Positions 7,408 through 10,260 of a DNA stretch of 10,260 nt are shown piece by piece. A program made the translations under genes and the position numbers. Source of the DNA: a virus; UHGV virus genome UHGV-0142786; one strand, written 5' to 3'. The stretch's first letter is position 1, and each line of letters opens with the position of its first letter. The notes beneath the pieces were generated by a model. That model was not told the DNA's origin and searched no databases. It saw only the letters and a program-made list of their open reading frames with translations.

Positions 7408-7524
7408 ATGCCCTCCATAGTAACCACAAATAAAAAATACAATATGTACTCATTAAACACAAGCAAAAAATACACATTGTGCATGGATGGTTCCAGTACA
7501 AAGCGTAATAATAAGGACATGAAA
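7408..7524. promoter_or_regulatory. Divergent cro/cI control region (OR with PR and PRM)
   Basis: 117-bp gap between the divergent cro and cI starts. Two similar sites: AAAAAATACAATATGTAC (7433-7450) and AAAAAATACACATTGTGC (7465-7482), the second holding the palindrome CACATTGTG. Exact -10/-35 boxes not resolved. Confidence 0.55.
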
Positions 7525-8178
7525 ATGAAATGGTATGAACTGGCTAGATCCAGAATGAAAGAGCTCGGCATAACTCAAGAGAAGTTAGCCGAAGAGCTAG
7601 GTATGACGCAGGGTGGAATTGGACACTGGTTGCGCGGATCTCGTCATCCATCTCTTAGTGATATTGGTGTGGTGTTTAAATACCTTGGTATTGATAACAT
7701 ATCATTCAACCACGACGGGACATTTTCACCTGTTGGCGAATACTCATCGGCCCCAGTTAAAAAACAATATGAGTACCCTGTTTTTTCTCATGTTCAGGCT
7801 GGGATGTTCTCTCCAGAACTCAGAACCTTTACCAAAGGCGATGCGGAGAGATTGGTAAGCACAACCAAAAAAGCCAGTGACTCTGCATTCTGGCTTGAGG
7901 TTGAAGGTAACTCAATGACCGCACCAACAGGTTCCAAACCTAGTTTTCCTGACGGGATGTTAATTCTGGTTGACCCAGAGCAAGCTGTTGAGCCCGGCGA
8001 TTTCTGCATAGCCAGACTTGGTGGTGATGAGTTTACCTTCAAGAAACTGATCAGGGATAGCGGTCAGGTGTTTCTACAGCCACTAAACCCACAATACCCA
8101 ATGATCCCATGCAATGAGAGTTGTTCCGTTGTGGGGAAAGTTATCGCTAGTCAGTGGCCTGAAGAGACGTTTGGGTAG
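7525..8178 (+). CDS. cI: CI prophage repressor: HTH N-terminal domain plus LexA/S24-type autocleavage C-terminal domain
   Basis: C-terminal domain from [14 protein letters not shown] to WPEETFG is essentially identical to lambda CI as I recall it; the N-terminal domain is unrelated to lambda. Track ORF from 7408 is over-extended into the cro start. ATG 7525 has an AAGGA Shine-Dalgarno at 7 nt; ATG 7519 is the alternative. Confidence 0.85.
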
Positions 8179-8366: not shown

Positions 8367-8588
8367 ATGAAAAAATCTGCAAAGCACTTTTTCAGCGCTA
8401 TGGGCTCTATCCTTGACCTTTGCCCAGCAGGTAGCTACAGCGAGTATCATTCAAATGCTACAGACATCGACCTTATCAACTCAGATTGGGTTAAGGTAGG
8501 TAGTTACGTTAGAGACGCTGTAACTGATAATGAGCAGAAAAAAATCCCAAAGAAAGCTTCAAACCGCCGCCCCGAGAAATCTTGTTAA
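8367..8588 (+). CDS. Hypothetical small protein (73 aa as read), first ORF of the rex-position cassette
   Basis: AGGA Shine-Dalgarno 8 nt upstream of ATG 8367. No homology recognised. The 3' end overlaps the next ORF by 59 nt across an A7 run. Confidence 0.5.
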   Translation: MKKSAKHFFSAMGSILDLCPAGSYSEYHSNATDIDLINSDWVKVGSYVRDAVTDNEQKKIPKKASNRRPEKSC

Positions 8589-9063
8589 CCAACCAACTCC
8601 GTTAGGGCGAGTTCAAGACGGTAAAACCGAACTGCTTATAAATGAGGTCGCAAAGAACCCTCAAGTTCTTGAGCGCCTCATGGACAGGCCAGATCTAGCT
8701 GGCATCATGATGCAGGTGACTCACACTAGATCAGGGCCACTCCCAGACGCTGACGAATTAGCTAAGTACGAAAGAATATCTCCAGGATTCGCTCGCGAAA
8801 TAATGGACATGGCTAAGGCTGAGCAAAAACACAGACACGAGTATTACAAAGCAGGACAGAGGGGAGCAATTTGGCGAGATCGACTCGGACAGATCTTTGC
8901 GATGACTTCTGTCTTTGTTTTCGCAGGAATTGCTTACAAGATGATTCAGCACGAGGCTTATGGCTGGGCTACCGGGCTTCTTGGTGCTGAGTTAGTTGCT
9001 TTAACTAGCGTGTTTATAATTGGAAGAAGAGACAAACCGAATCCAAAGCAAACTAAAAAATGA
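8530..9063 (+). CDS. Hypothetical membrane protein with two C-terminal transmembrane helices, possibly DUF2335-like
   Basis: 177-aa ORF. Motif LPDADELAKYERISPGFAREIMDMAKAEQKHRHEY followed by hydrophobic IFAMTSVFVFAGIAY and WATGLLGAELVALTSVFIIG. The DUF2335 assignment is from memory and unverified. No clear Shine-Dalgarno at 8530. Confidence 0.6.
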   Translation: MSRKKSQRKLQTAAPRNLVNQPTPLGRVQDGKTELLINEVAKNPQVLERLMDRPDLAGIMMQVTHTRSGPLPDADELAKYERISPGFAREIMDMAKAEQKHRHEYYKAGQRGAIWRDRLGQIFAMTSVFVFAGIAYKMIQHEAYGWATGLLGAELVALTSVFIIGRRDKPNPKQTKK

Positions 9064-9066
9064 GAC

Positions 9067-9093
9067 AACCCGGCTTCCGCGCCGGGTTTTCTT
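9067..9093 (+). terminator. Rho-independent terminator closing the cI/rex-position operon
   Basis: Stem CCCGGC (9069-9074) / GCCGGG (9081-9086), then TTTTCTTT, directly after the stop at 9063. Confidence 0.7.
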
Positions 9094-9277: not shown

Positions 9278-9306
9278 TTGACCAGATAAAGTACATATCG
9301 TACTAT
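9278..9306 (+). promoter_or_regulatory. Candidate PL promoter
   Basis: TTGACC (9278-9283), 17-bp spacer, TACTAT (9301-9306), upstream of nutL and N. TACAA/TTGTA palindromes nearby at 9234-9247 and 9124-9134 may be OL sites. Confidence 0.4.
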
Positions 9307-9352: not shown

Positions 9353-9398
9353 GCTCTTTAAACAACGTCGAACACTCGACTACGTGGCTGAAAAGCCA
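9353..9398 (+). promoter_or_regulatory. nutL candidate: boxA-like GCTCTTTAA and boxB-like hairpin UGGCUGAAAAGCCA, 23 nt apart
   Basis: boxA at 9353-9361 (GGCTCTTTAAACAA resembles rrn boxA); boxB hairpin at 9385-9398. Same layout as the nutR candidate. Confidence 0.55.
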
Positions 9399-9422: not shown

Positions 9423-9472
9423 GGATGCAATGCCGAAGCAACCGGCTCAGGAGGAGCTTCGAGATTGCATCG
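9423..9472 (+). other. Long imperfect hairpin in the N leader, candidate RNase III processing or translational control structure
   Basis: GATGCAAT (9423-9430) pairs with ATTGCATC (9465-9472); CGAAGC (9433-9438) pairs with GCTTCG (9456-9461). Lies between nutL and the N Shine-Dalgarno GGGAGG (9486-9491). Confidence 0.4.
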
Positions 9473-9496
9473 CCAAAGTTTATTCGGGAGGAATCT

Positions 9497-9769
9497 ATGT
9501 CCAGAAAAACAGAATTTAAAGGCACCGCAGCTTCTCGCCGTAGAGCTCGTCGTGCAAACCTGCAAAGTCAGGAGGCGATCAGCTCTGACAAACTACACAG
9601 GCCAACCCCTTCACGAGTGGTCTTACAATGCAAACGCAAACCAGTAATGAGAGCAGAAGTAATAACACTGACAACGTTGACCAGAAAATATGAAGGCTCA
9701 ACTTGTCTTCCAAATGTAGCCATTTACGCGGCAGGCTACAGGAAATCCAAACAGCTGACAGCAAGATGA
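9497..9769 (+). CDS. N: N-type transcription antiterminator (90 aa)
   Basis: Arginine-rich motif GTAASRRRARRANLQ near the N-terminus; C-terminus LPNVAIYAAGYRKSKQLTAR resembles my recollection of P22 gene 24 (LPGVALYAAGHRKSKQITAR). Track ORF from 9425 is over-extended; ATG 9497 follows GGGAGG. Confidence 0.8.
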   Translation: MSRKTEFKGTAASRRRARRANLQSQEAISSDKLHRPTPSRVVLQCKRKPVMRAEVITLTTLTRKYEGSTCLPNVAIYAAGYRKSKQLTAR

Positions 9770-9819
9770 CTTGTGTTGGTCGCCAGAAAATGAAATTAGG
9801 CAGCAAACCACTTATTTGA
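9766..9819 (+). pseudogene. Fossil 3' end of a lambda-type N gene (17 codons), recombination scar
   Basis: Translation MTCVGRQKMKLGSKPLI resembles the lambda N C-terminus ITCSGRQKIKGKSIPLI. Starts one nucleotide before the functional N stop, in the +1 frame. Confidence 0.45.
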
Positions 9820-9827
9820 GGTGAGAT

Positions 9828-9914
9828 ATGGAAGAAGAATTTGAAGAGTTCGAAGAGCATCCTCAGGATGTGATGGAACAATACCAGGACTATCCGTATG
9901 ACTGCGACTATTGA
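9828..9914 (+). CDS. Candidate small acidic protein (28 aa)
   Basis: Hand translation MEEEFEEFEEHPQDVMEQYQDYPYDCDY. Strong GAGGTGA Shine-Dalgarno 6 nt upstream of ATG 9828. Too short for the ORF track; no homology recognised. Confidence 0.35.
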   Translation: MEEEFEEFEEHPQDVMEQYQDYPYDCDY

Positions 9915-10041
9915 TAAGAATCAATGGTGTGGGCAATACGAACGACGGCAATGATTGTCAGAGAACTTGGTAAACAGAACAACAAAGCTGCCTGATAGTG
10001 GCCTTTATTTTTGGCATAAATAACAGAATAAACACTGCACT

Positions 10042-10069
10042 GTGTATTCATTCCAACGAGTGAATACAC
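10042..10069. other. Inverted repeat GTGTATTCA / TGAATACAC with a 10-nt spacer
   Basis: Perfect 9-bp arms (10042-10050 and 10061-10069). Not followed by a T-run, so not an intrinsic terminator; could be a protein-binding site or RNA structure. Confidence 0.3.
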
Positions 10070-10131
10070 GGAGCAATGTCGCTCGTAACTAAACAGGAGC
10101 CGACTTGTTCTGATTATTGGAAATCTTCTTT

Positions 10132-10157
10132 GCCCTCCAGTGTGAGGGCGATTTTTT
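10132..10157 (+). terminator. Rho-independent terminator (tL1-like) downstream of N
   Basis: Stem GCCCTC (10132-10137) / GAGGGC (10144-10149), loop CAGTGT, then GATTTTTTAT. Confidence 0.6.
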
Positions 10158-10177
10158 ATCTGTGAGGATATGAATAG

Positions 10178-10260
10178 ATGTCAAACATCAAAAAATACAT
10201 CATTAATTACGACTGGAAAGCATCAATAGAAATTGAAATCGACCATGACGTAATGACAGA
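10178..10260 (+). CDS. Hypothetical protein, 5' end only; runs off the right edge of the window
   Basis: ATG 10178 preceded by GAGGA (10164-10168); open frame MSNIKKYIINYDWKASIEIEIDHDVMT continues to the window end. No homology recognised. Confidence 0.4.
   Translation, partial: MSNIKKYIINYDWKASIEIEIDHDVMT

What the first reader, a model, noticed from the sequence alone, without database searches (positions are those of the whole stretch)
9497..9819. Mosaic N gene with a fossil lambda-type N 3' end immediately downstream
The functional N ORF ends with a P22-gp24-like tail (...LPNVAIYAAGYRKSKQLTAR). Overlapping its stop, the +1 frame encodes MTCVGRQKMKLGSKPLI, which resembles the lambda N C-terminus (ITCSGRQKIKGKSIPLI). 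This looks like a replaced N gene that left its original 3' end behind.
Basis: partly seen in the sequence, partly recalled or inferred. Interest (0 to 1): 0.55.

Follow-up and report, generated by a model that had tools for sequence, protein, structure and literature searches.

The report
Leftover N-gene tail after N
Just after this phage's antitermination gene N lie the last 17 codons of a different, lambda/phage-21-type N gene, a common and ordinary scar of the gene swapping that builds lambda-like phages.

Summary
N (9497..9769) is a complete P22-gp24/HK97-family antiterminator. One base before its TGA stop, a 54-nt stretch (9766..9819) reads MTCVGRQKMKLGSKPLI*.

- **Match:** the stretch matches the 3' end of the in-frame N genes of phage HK544 at 53/54 nt and phage 21 at 52/54 nt. 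Lambda itself matches at only 32/54 nt (11/17 aa).
- **Continuation:** the similarity runs on to the window end, 487/494 nt identical to lambda imm21 (orf28, ral, ea10).
- **Joint:** the 90 nt to the left are no more similar to 21/lambda N than shuffled sequence, so this is a sharp recombination joint. N's stop codon is supplied by the relic (GTG ACT read as G TGA CT).
- **Spread:** the same joint is in HK97, 933W, VT2-Sakai and mEp234, and in 638 of 5,426 complete E. coli genomes.
- **Related relics:** relics of about 21, 37 and 85-93 nt follow other genes (nun and small ORFs) in related phages.
- **No independent function seen:** the ATG comes from a synonymous AGG/AGA change (GTG in 31 of 58 copies). 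There is no Shine-Dalgarno sequence, slippery site, RNA structure or Rfam match.

It is most likely a non-coding relic that also serves as a shared homology patch. This is ordinary lambdoid mosaicism.

The parts
9278..9306 (+). pL-like early leftward promoter (TTGACC, 17 nt, TACTAT) that drives N and the relic
   Evidence: Consensus scan. It coincides with the operator and promoter features annotated in Stx1 phage AP005153.
9353..9380 (+). nutL-like site: boxA-like GCTCTTTAAA (9353-9362) and boxB hairpin GTCGA-ACAC-TCGAC (9367-9380)
   Evidence: Read directly from the sequence. The hairpin is picked up. The position matches the nutL annotations of related phages. Function was not tested.
9497..9769 (+). 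Resident N antiterminator gene, 90 aa, of the P22 gp24/HK97 family, ending ...YAAGYRKSKQLTAR; its TGA stop is at 9767-9769
   Evidence: Pfam PF25694 N_peptide, E = 2.2e-32, residues 1-90. BLASTP to P22 gp24 E = 1e-12 and to HK97 N E = 6e-24. A GGAGG Shine-Dalgarno sequence precedes ATG 9497.
9766..9767 (+). Recombination joint. To the left is gp24-type N; from T9767 rightward is 21/HK544-type sequence. The TGA stop of N is read from the relic's GTG ACT codons.
   Evidence: Alignments. Matches of in-frame-N phages start at query position 56. The 90 nt to the left show no similarity above shuffles.
9766..9819 (+). Relic of the last 17 codons plus stop of a lambda/21-type N gene (MTCVGRQKMKLGSKPLI*), in the -1 frame relative to N
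   Evidence: 53/54 nt identical to HK544 N, 52/54 to phage 21 N and 32/54 to lambda N. The same sequence is in frame in 48 IMG/VR loci and out of frame after gp24-type N in 55.
9818..9824 (+). Shine-Dalgarno GAGGTGA of the next gene, overlapping the relic's stop codon
   Evidence: Read directly from the sequence. The motif TGAGGTGA[G/T]ATATG is shared ahead of most of the at least 10 different downstream genes; some classes carry variant spacers.
9828..9914 (+). orf28 homologue, a 28-aa acidic ORF, 27/28 identical to lambda orf28
   Evidence: Translation and comparison with lambda orf28. No Pfam match.
9898..9995 (+). ral pseudogene. A 103-bp frameshifting internal deletion at 9929/9930 leaves MTATIDKNQWCGQYERRQ*, and the ral C-terminus (AIRTTAMIVRELGKQNNKAA*) sits in another frame.
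   Evidence: Alignment with lambda imm21 and phage 2B8. Block coordinates and translations.
9987..10151 (+). Two terminator-like hairpins with T runs (9987-10002 and 10130-10151), downstream of ral and before ea10 (ATG 10178)
   Evidence: Scan. The sequence is identical to lambda imm21 here.

Best explanation
The 54 nt at 9766..9819 are a non-functional relic: the last 17 codons of a lambda/phage-21-type N gene.

Origin (inferred). An ancestor carried an in-frame 21-type N followed by orf28-ral-ea10. A recombination event with no detectable flanking homology put an immunity/pL/nutL/N module with a gp24 (HK97)-type N in place of everything to the left of the final 17 codons. The joint fell so that the incoming N ends on a TGA read out of the old codons GTG ACT.

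Present state (inferred). The relic is transcribed from pL as part of the spacer between N and orf28, but it is not needed as a peptide. It persists for three reasons:
1. Nothing selects for its removal.
2. Its 3' end abuts or overlaps the ribosome-binding site of the next gene.
3. It stays identical to the 3' end of intact N genes in co-circulating phages. That gives a roughly 65-bp homology patch (relic plus Shine-Dalgarno sequence plus ATG) across which immunity/N modules and left-arm accessory modules are reassorted by ordinary homologous recombination. This also keeps the patch homogenised.

Shown: the sequence identity, the sharp joint, the frame, the prevalence, and the nested series of independent relics. 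Inferred: the order of events, the lack of function, and the role as a crossover patch.
For: - **Identity and collinearity:** 53/54 nt to HK544 N, and 487/494 nt to lambda imm21 from 9767 to the window end.
- **Sharp joint:** the 90 nt to the left of the joint are no more similar to 21/lambda N than shuffles, p > 0.08 in all 30 comparisons. The two N types belong to different Pfam families, PF25694 and PF11438.
- **Coding state is ancestral:** the same 17 codons are in frame in lambda, 21 and HK544 N.
- **Independent truncations:** in related IMG/VR phages the same N 3' end is truncated to 85-93 nt after nun, 93 nt after an 88-aa Cys-rich ORF, 53-55 nt after gp24-type N, 37 nt once, and about 21 nt after a 74-aa ORF. 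There are also internally deleted copies. This is the pattern expected of eroding relics.
- **P22 lacks it:** P22 itself has no relic after gene 24. About half of the tail-type N genes sampled lack it too, so N does not require it.
- **No sign of independent expression or a cis element:** the codon in the relic frame is GTG in 31, ATG in 26 and GTA in 1 of 58 copies, tracking the synonymous AGG/AGA choice in N's last codon. There is no Shine-Dalgarno sequence upstream. The RNA fold z-score is 0.10. Rfam gives only one sub-threshold match (S15 leader, E = 0.84) lying outside the relic. No promoter or terminator lies in it.
- **Reassortment across the patch:** every upstream class is found with several downstream classes. 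The patch is a low-diversity island, pi 0.024 against 0.10 in the adjacent N tail; 2/53 against 7/27 common variable sites, Fisher p = 0.006.
Against: - **Unexpected conservation:** the relic is less polymorphic than the synonymous sites of the functional N tail beside it. Free neutral drift would not predict this. I explain it by homogenisation against intact N genes, or by recent spread, but constraint at the nucleotide level is not excluded.
- **Possible translation:** a start codon (ATG or GTG) is present in 57 of 58 copies and overlaps N's stop, so some reinitiation cannot be ruled out from sequence alone.
- **Weak test of peptide selection:** there is too little variation to test it. I counted 1 synonymous and 4 non-synonymous variant types by eye from the sequences listed.
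- **No experiment** was possible.
Confidence: 0.82

Rival explanations
1. Selected boundary (linker) sequence. The N 3' end plus the Shine-Dalgarno sequence and ATG is actively maintained because it targets homologous recombination between modules. This is the Susskind-Botstein/Clark 'boundary sequence' model. On this reading the relic is kept for that role rather than being mere debris.
For: - It is a near-invariant island between two highly variable flanks.
- It is shared by at least 5 upstream gene classes and at least 10 downstream sequences in many combinations.
- The boundary-sequence model is an accepted possibility for lambdoid phages (PMC3233612; PMC2327257).
- 'Boundary sequence' features are annotated in related records.
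Against: - Reassortment and homogenisation follow from any shared patch, without selection for recombination.
- The relic is truncated to different lengths and internally deleted in different lineages, and it is absent after about half of tail-type N genes.
- Second-order selection on a 50-bp patch would be weak.
Confidence: 0.1
2. The 3'-most part of the relic is retained because it is the translation-initiation leader of the downstream gene (orf28 or its alternatives). The rest hitch-hikes.
For: - The relic's stop overlaps the GAGGTGA Shine-Dalgarno sequence, 6 nt ahead of ATG 9828.
- The only part common to all relic classes is the last roughly 20 nt plus the Shine-Dalgarno sequence.
- Most of the different downstream genes start at the same ATG after the shared Shine-Dalgarno sequence.
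Against: - The region shows no predicted structure (z = 0.10).
- Some downstream modules use a different spacer directly after the TGA, for example TGAGAGGAATTAATATG and TGAGGACTGATACATG, so the leader is not strictly required.
- This would explain only about 20 of the 54 nt.
Confidence: 0.3
3. Translated micropeptide. Ribosomes terminating at N's TGA reinitiate at the overlapping ATG/GTG and make a free 17-aa peptide. It would correspond to the extreme C-terminus of lambda/21-type N, which belongs to the RNA-polymerase-binding part of N (my own knowledge, not tested here).
For: - There is an ATGA stop-start overlap in the window.
- A start codon is present in 57 of 58 copies.
- The relic frame is intact in most copies.
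Against: - The start codon is inherited (Val GTG in intact N) or created by a synonymous change in N.
- There is no Shine-Dalgarno sequence.
- Non-synonymous variants (G to D, L to S, S to I, M to I), shorter relics and internal deletions are tolerated.
- P22 and many tail-type N genes lack it.
Confidence: 0.04
4. In-situ truncation instead of replacement. The gp24-type tail and the 21-type C-terminus are diverged homologues, and a frameshift in an ancestral long N created the early stop. On this reading the 17 codons were orphaned within the same gene lineage.
For: - A by-eye, in-frame resemblance of I-Y-(AAG)-Y-R-K-P in the L200 tail to I-Y-Y-R-K-P in 21-type N.
- L200/L202 carry a 21-type N body, a gp24-type tail and the relic.
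- L142 has a diverged first 17 nt of the relic at the same position.
Against: - There is no DNA similarity above shuffles to the left of the joint.
- BLASTP finds no alignment between P22 gp24 and phage 21 N.
- Identity jumps from background to 98% within one nucleotide, which indicates a recombination joint.
- P22 has nothing relic-like after gene 24.
Confidence: 0.06
5. A programmed -1 frameshift at the end of N yields an N protein carrying both C-terminal modules (…KQLTAR-MTCVGRQKMKLGSKPLI).
For: Only the geometry: the relic is open in the -1 frame right at N's last codon.
Against: - There is no slippery heptamer.
- The junction varies (AGG, AGA or AAA; TGA or TAA).
- There is no downstream stimulatory structure.
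Confidence: 0.01

Closest known systems
The N-to-next-gene junction of coliphage HK97 (NC_002167) and of Shiga-toxin phages 933W, VT2-Sakai and Stx1 phage AP005153
   Same: - The joint is identical: ...CAGCAAG(G/A)|TGACTTGTGTTGGTCGCCAGAAAATGAAATTAGGCAGCAAACCACTTATTTGAGGTGA.
- All have a gp24-type N tail, and all leave the relic unannotated.
   Different: - HK97 has GTG rather than ATG in the relic frame.
- The gene after the relic differs: gp45 in HK97, ORF b61 in the Stx phages, and orf28-ral here.
- HK97 and 933W carry the 127-aa N variant, whereas the window and the VT2-Sakai type carry the 90-aa variant.
Intact N genes of phage 21 (lambda imm21, OM418625), HK544 (EF120455) and lambda (NC_001416)
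   Same: - The last 17 codons and the stop are the same sequence: 52-53/54 nt for 21 and HK544, and 11/17 aa for lambda.
- In 21 and HK544 they are followed by the same Shine-Dalgarno sequence, orf28 and ral.
   Different: - There the 17 codons are in frame with a full N (ARM, NusA-binding and RNAP-binding parts). Here they are cut off from any N body and lie in the -1 frame of an unrelated N family.
Mosaic 'novel joints' and 'boundary sequences' of lambdoid phages (the Hendrix/Juhala illegitimate-recombination model and the Clark/Susskind-Botstein linker model)
   Same: - There is a sharp transition between unrelated and near-identical sequence at a gene boundary.
- A short conserved stretch is shared by phages whose flanking modules differ. 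The concepts are summarised in PMC3233612 and PMC2327257.
   Different: - The joint lies 51 nt inside a former coding region, so a recognisable piece of the replaced gene survives.
- I did not find this particular relic described in the papers I could search. The HK97/HK022 genome paper was not available.
Longer N relics after nun (the HK022 Nun type) in uncultivated phage contigs
   Same: The same 21-type N 3' end is left behind after a gene occupying the N position.
   Different: - These relics are 85-93 nt long and are preceded by an intrinsic terminator-like hairpin.
- They represent an independent joint.
- HK022 itself lacks the relic: a terminator and then IS903 follow nun.

Membership tests
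Relic (pseudogene fragment) of a lambda/21-type N gene | Nucleotide-level identity to the 3' end of intact, in-frame N genes | tested here: met
   53/54 nt to HK544 N, 52/54 to phage 21 N and 32/54 to lambda N.
Relic (pseudogene fragment) of a lambda/21-type N gene | Collinear continuation into the sequence that follows N in those phages | tested here: met
   487/494 nt identical to lambda imm21 from 9767 to 10260, covering orf28, ral and ea10.
Relic (pseudogene fragment) of a lambda/21-type N gene | Cut off from the rest of the gene: no N body in frame upstream, and an abrupt loss of similarity | tested here: met
   The relic frame is open for only 26 codons upstream and overlaps N in another frame. 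The 90 nt to the left of the joint are no more similar than shuffles.
Relic (pseudogene fragment) of a lambda/21-type N gene | No function of its own (not translated, no cis role) | not testable with these tools
   There are only indirect signs: no Shine-Dalgarno sequence, a variable start codon, no structure, no Rfam match in the relic, and erosion in other lineages.
P22 gp24 / HK97-type N antiterminators (Pfam PF25694), for the resident gene 9497..9769 | Full-length match to the family profile, including the arginine-rich motif and the ...YAAG(Y/H)RKSKQ(L/I)TAR tail | tested here: met
   PF25694 E = 2.2e-32, residues 1-90 on profile positions 5-100. Alignments to gp24 and HK97 N.
P22 gp24 / HK97-type N antiterminators (Pfam PF25694), for the resident gene 9497..9769 | A cognate nutL (boxA plus boxB hairpin) between pL and N | tested here: met
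   pL at 9278-9306; boxA-like at 9353-9362; hairpin at 9367-9380. Antitermination activity was not tested.
Lambdoid 'boundary sequence' / recombination linker | A short conserved sequence shared by phages whose modules on both sides differ | tested here: met
   pi is 0.024 in the relic, against 0.10-0.32 in the flanks. Upstream and downstream classes are reassorted.
Lambdoid 'boundary sequence' / recombination linker | Crossovers actually occur there, and the sequence is maintained for that reason | not testable with these tools
   This needs phage crosses or much larger population data. Erosion and absence in many lineages argue against selection for it.
Translationally coupled small ORF (micropeptide gene) | A conserved start with a ribosome-binding context, and purifying selection on the peptide | tested here: inconclusive
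   A start codon is present in 57 of 58 copies, but by descent or as a synonymous by-product. There is no Shine-Dalgarno sequence. Variation is too low to measure selection, and non-synonymous variants and truncations exist.
Programmed -1 ribosomal frameshift site | A slippery heptamer plus a downstream stimulatory structure, conserved | tested here: not met
   The junction reads CAGCAAG(A/G)TGACT with variable codons. The fold z-score is 0.10.

The most novel reading that the evidence does not exclude
The last 17-30 codons of N, plus the following ribosome-binding site, may be more than debris. There are two versions of this reading:
1. The stretch is a selectively maintained recombination linker that lets immunity/N modules and left-arm accessory modules trade partners.
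2. In relic-bearing phages it is expressed by stop-start coupling at ATGA/GTGA as a free 17-aa copy of the RNA-polymerase-contacting end of lambda-type N.

Either version would explain why an 'orphaned' sequence is less polymorphic than the synonymous sites of the working gene next to it.
Probability: 0.08. Interest if true: 0.55.

Novelty: new member of a known kind. Interest (0 to 1): 0.25.

Why it matters
This is a clean, datable example of how lambdoid phages are assembled. A whole antiterminator of one family was dropped onto the remains of another, with the stop codon borrowed from the old gene. The leftover then serves as common ground for further exchanges.

It has three practical uses:
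- **Annotation.** The 38-aa and antisense 'hypothetical proteins' called over this stretch in some records are very likely spurious. N starts at 9497, not 9425.
- **A lineage marker.** The joint marks the HK97/Stx-phage early-left region and is present in about 12% of complete E. coli genomes.
- **A test bed.** It is small and well defined, so it could help decide between the illegitimate-recombination and boundary-sequence models of phage mosaicism.

It does not reveal a new mechanism or a new gene.

Tried and rejected
- **Chance resemblance: rejected.** The match is 53/54 nt and belongs to a 494-nt block at 98.6% identity.
- **Relic belongs to a known downstream gene: rejected.** The known small gene, orf28, begins at 9828.
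- **RNA element: nothing found.** Rfam at E <= 1 gave only one sub-threshold match outside the relic (S15 leader, 10126-10252, E = 0.84). The fold z-score was 0.10. No promoter or terminator lies in the relic.
- **Graded homology ('shoulder') or an ancient frameshift linking the gp24-type tail to the 21-type C-terminus: not supported.** DNA shuffle tests gave p > 0.08, and BLASTP of gp24 against 21 N found nothing. A short I-Y..Y-R-K-P resemblance remains unexplained.
- **A recalled claim that HK022 carries an N relic after nun: wrong for HK022 itself.** There, a terminator and then IS903 follow nun. Nun-bearing relatives in IMG/VR do carry it.
- **Selection test on the peptide: uninformative,** because variation is too low.
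- **Literature searches:**, plus look-ups, found no description of this relic. Juhala et al. 2000 and Plunkett et al. 1999 are not held, so prior mention cannot be excluded.
- **Species-wide scan for the joint:** it found only Escherichia albertii and two likely contaminant contigs.
- **Not used:** the large protein databases and structure prediction, because the question is settled at the DNA level.

Full report
**1. What is in the sequence**

The window is the immunity and early-left region of a lambdoid (pro)phage. On the + strand it carries, in order:
- a cI-type repressor at 7408-8178 (HTH_3 plus Peptidase_S24);
- two accessory ORFs, one of them a DUF2335 membrane protein;
- a terminator at 9067-9088;
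- a pL-like promoter at 9278-9306;
- a boxA-like sequence and a boxB hairpin at 9353-9380;
- the N ORF.

N runs from ATG 9497, behind GGGAGGAATCT, to TGA 9767-9769. It encodes 90 aa ending CLPNVAIYAAGYRKSKQLTAR. An ATG at 9766 overlaps that stop. It opens MTCVGRQKMKLGSKPLI, which ends at TGA 9817-9819. The frame, however, is -1 (+2) relative to N, not +1.

**2. Is it more than chance?**

Yes. The 54 nt match the 3' ends of intact N genes as follows:

| N gene | nt identity | aa identity |
|---|---|---|
| Phage HK544 | 53/54 | 16/17 |
| Phage 21 | 52/54 | 15/17 |
| Lambda | 32/54 | 11/17 |

- The match is the left edge of a block. From 9767 to the window end, 487 of 494 aligned bases equal lambda imm21. 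The block runs through the Shine-Dalgarno sequence GAGGTGA, a 28-aa ORF that is 27/28 identical to lambda orf28, then ral, two terminator-like hairpins and the start of ea10.
- To the left of 9767 the similarity vanishes. The 90 nt before the joint score no better against 21, HK544 or lambda N than shuffled sequence does (p > 0.08 in all 30 comparisons).
- In a junction-spanning megablast, phages with an in-frame N match from query position 56, which is window 9767, and no further left.

**3. What the resident N is**

It is not an internal patchwork.
- It matches Pfam PF25694, the P22 gp24-type N family, over residues 1-90 (E = 2.2e-32). HK544 N matches the lambda family PF11438 instead.
- It aligns with P22 gp24 end to end (38% identity, E = 1e-12) and with HK97 N (E = 6e-24).
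- Its 'P22-like tail' is simply the normal C-terminus of this family. P22 gp24 and phage 21 N give no BLASTP alignment at all.

The mosaic joint therefore lies at the stop codon of a complete gene of one N family. What follows is the tail of a gene of the other family. The stop codon itself belongs to the relic: intact N reads ...GGT GTG ACT TGT..., and the resident N reads ...AG(A/G) TGA.

**4. The same thing elsewhere**

- P22 has no relic after gene 24; that gene ends ...GCGAGGTAAGGTATT.
- HK97 has exactly the same joint, with GTG instead of ATG. So do 933W, VT2-Sakai, the Stx1 phage AP005153 and mEp234.
- A 119-nt query across the joint is covered at 80% or more in 129 phage records and in 638 of 5,426 complete E. 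coli genomes.
- A scan of one genome per species found the joint only in Escherichia albertii, plus two contigs that look like contamination or mis-binning.
- None of the curated records annotates the relic as a gene. One automated record calls the 38-aa TTG-start frame a hypothetical protein, and another calls an antisense ORF.

**5. A survey of uncultivated phage contigs**

I ran two exact-word scans of IMG/VR. One was anchored in the relic and one in the gp24-type tail.

Of the tail-type N genes found from the tail side, about half are followed directly by the relic. The rest are followed by other sequences.

The N 3' end occurs in the following settings:

| Setting | Loci | Length of N 3'-end homology |
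|---|---|---|
| In frame in intact N genes | 48 | whole 3' region compared |
| After gp24-type N | 55 | 53-55 nt, one locus 37 nt |
| After a Nun gene with its own terminator-like hairpin | 9 | 85-93 nt |
| After an 88-aa Cys-rich ORF | 7 | 93 nt |
| After a 74-aa ORF | 6 | about 21 nt |

- Some copies also carry internal deletions.
- HK022 itself has no relic after nun.
- There are hybrid N genes too. One type has a 21-type body, a gp24-type tail and the relic (L200, L202). Another has a P22-type N-terminus joined to a 21-type C-terminus (L029).
- This nested series of independent truncations is what eroding leftovers of one ancestral arrangement should look like. The coding state is ancestral, because lambda, 21 and HK544 all read these codons in frame.

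**6. Signs of function, looked for and not found**

- **Start codon.** Among 58 relic-bearing copies the first codon in the relic frame is GTG in 31 (the ancestral Val codon), ATG in 26 and GTA in 1. This follows the synonymous AGG/AGA (once AAA) choice in N's last codon.
- **Ribosome binding.** There is no Shine-Dalgarno sequence upstream and no slippery heptamer.
- **RNA.** The RNA of 9740-9850 folds no better than shuffles (z = 0.10). Rfam at E <= 1 reports only one sub-threshold match, an S15 leader at 10126-10252 (E = 0.84), outside the relic. No promoter-like or terminator-like site lies in the relic.
- **Peptide variants.** Non-synonymous changes occur in relic copies (G to D, L to S, S to I, M to I).

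**7. One feature needs explaining**

In the tail-anchored sample the relic is an island of low diversity.
- Mean pi is 0.024, against 0.10 in the 27 nt of N just before it and 0.32 just after the next gene's ATG.
- It has 2 of 53 common variable sites against 7 of 27 (Fisher p = 0.006).

A freely drifting old relic should vary at least as much as synonymous sites.

Upstream gene classes and downstream gene classes are found in many combinations across this patch. The same 53 nt are also nearly invariant in intact N genes.

My preferred explanation is that the relic, the Shine-Dalgarno sequence and the ATG act passively as a shared homology patch. Recombination with co-circulating phages, including those where the sequence is a working N terminus, both shuffles the flanks and keeps the patch uniform. 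This fits the two accepted models of lambdoid mosaicism. One is illegitimate joints filtered by selection. The other is homologous exchange at short conserved boundary sequences (PMC3233612; PMC2327257). Whether the patch is selected for that role cannot be decided here. Its erosion and frequent absence argue against it.

**8. Verdict**

- Three refinements apply. The donor is of the phage-21/HK544 type. The resident N is a whole gp24-family gene rather than a chimera. The feature is common and sits in well-known genomes published from 1999-2000 onward.
- I found no paper describing it in the searchable library. The genome papers most likely to mention it are not held.
- It is a new, or at least not demonstrably described, member of a well-known kind: a relic at a mosaic joint. 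Interest is modest.

Noticed in passing
window 9898-9995: ral is a pseudogene here. A 103-bp internal deletion at 9929/9930 shifts the frame, leaving MTATIDKNQWCGQYERRQ*. The Ral C-terminus (AIRTTAMIVRELGKQNNKAA*) remains in another frame. Phage E212 has a similar but not identical deletion; phage 2B8 and lambda imm21 are intact.
   Followed up: partly
window 9425-9769: Records for Stx phages annotate this N as 114 aa from ATG 9425. The ATG at 9497 has a GGAGG Shine-Dalgarno sequence and aligns with the start of HK97 N and with the Pfam profile, so 90 aa is the likely product.
   Followed up: partly
window 9579-9881 (- strand) and 9703-9819 (+ strand): A 100-aa antisense ORF is annotated as hypothetical 'ORF B54' in AP005153. 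The 38-aa TTG-start frame over the relic is annotated as a hypothetical protein in PQ657771. Both look like annotation artefacts of this joint.
   Followed up: no
window 8367-9063: Two ORFs lie between cI and the tIMM terminator, in the position of lambda rexA/rexB. One is 73 aa with no Pfam match. The other is 177 aa with a DUF2335 membrane-protein domain. They are possible prophage-expressed accessory or exclusion genes.
   Followed up: no
L200 and L202 (IMG/VR), N region: These N genes have a 21-type body up to ...SLGSLRCKKA. An approximately 85-nt gp24-type tail cassette (DECSGSICLPNVAIYAAGYRKPKQLTAR*) follows, and then the 17-codon relic. Both flanks of the cassette are 21-type. This could be a snapshot of how the tail was introduced.
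   Followed up: partly
L013, L040, L058, L068, L069, L087, L097, L102, L120 (IMG/VR): Nun genes of the HK022 type are followed by a terminator-like hairpin and an 85-93-nt relic of the 21-type N 3' end. HK022 itself (L211) instead has a terminator-like hairpin and then IS903 after nun.
   Followed up: partly
L050, L056, L059, L083, L092, L093, L110 (IMG/VR): An 88-aa Cys-rich ORF (MTSKQVSYKCYCPLCGRKF...HINDYHPK...), with its own terminator-like hairpin, sits in the N/nun position ahead of a 93-nt N relic. Its function is unknown, and these loci show no N-like arginine-rich protein at that position.
   Followed up: no
L142 (IMG/VR), just after N: This relic sits at the same position but follows a TAA stop. 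Its first 17 nt differ at 9 positions without indels (it reads SCTVHQKMKLGSKPLI). It is either an older diverged relic partly overwritten from CCAGAAAATG onward, or a third allele of the N C-terminus.
   Followed up: no
L160 (IMG/VR): A 54-aa ORF (…WWERIYFRSKPLI*) reads in frame into the last five codons of an internally deleted long N relic. A new small gene is borrowing the old N stop.
   Followed up: no
window 9766-9830 and the equivalent stretch in IMG/VR loci: The relic is less polymorphic (pi 0.024) than the synonymous sites of the adjacent functional N tail (pi 0.10). I explain this tentatively by homogenisation through recombination, but it is not proven.
   Followed up: partly
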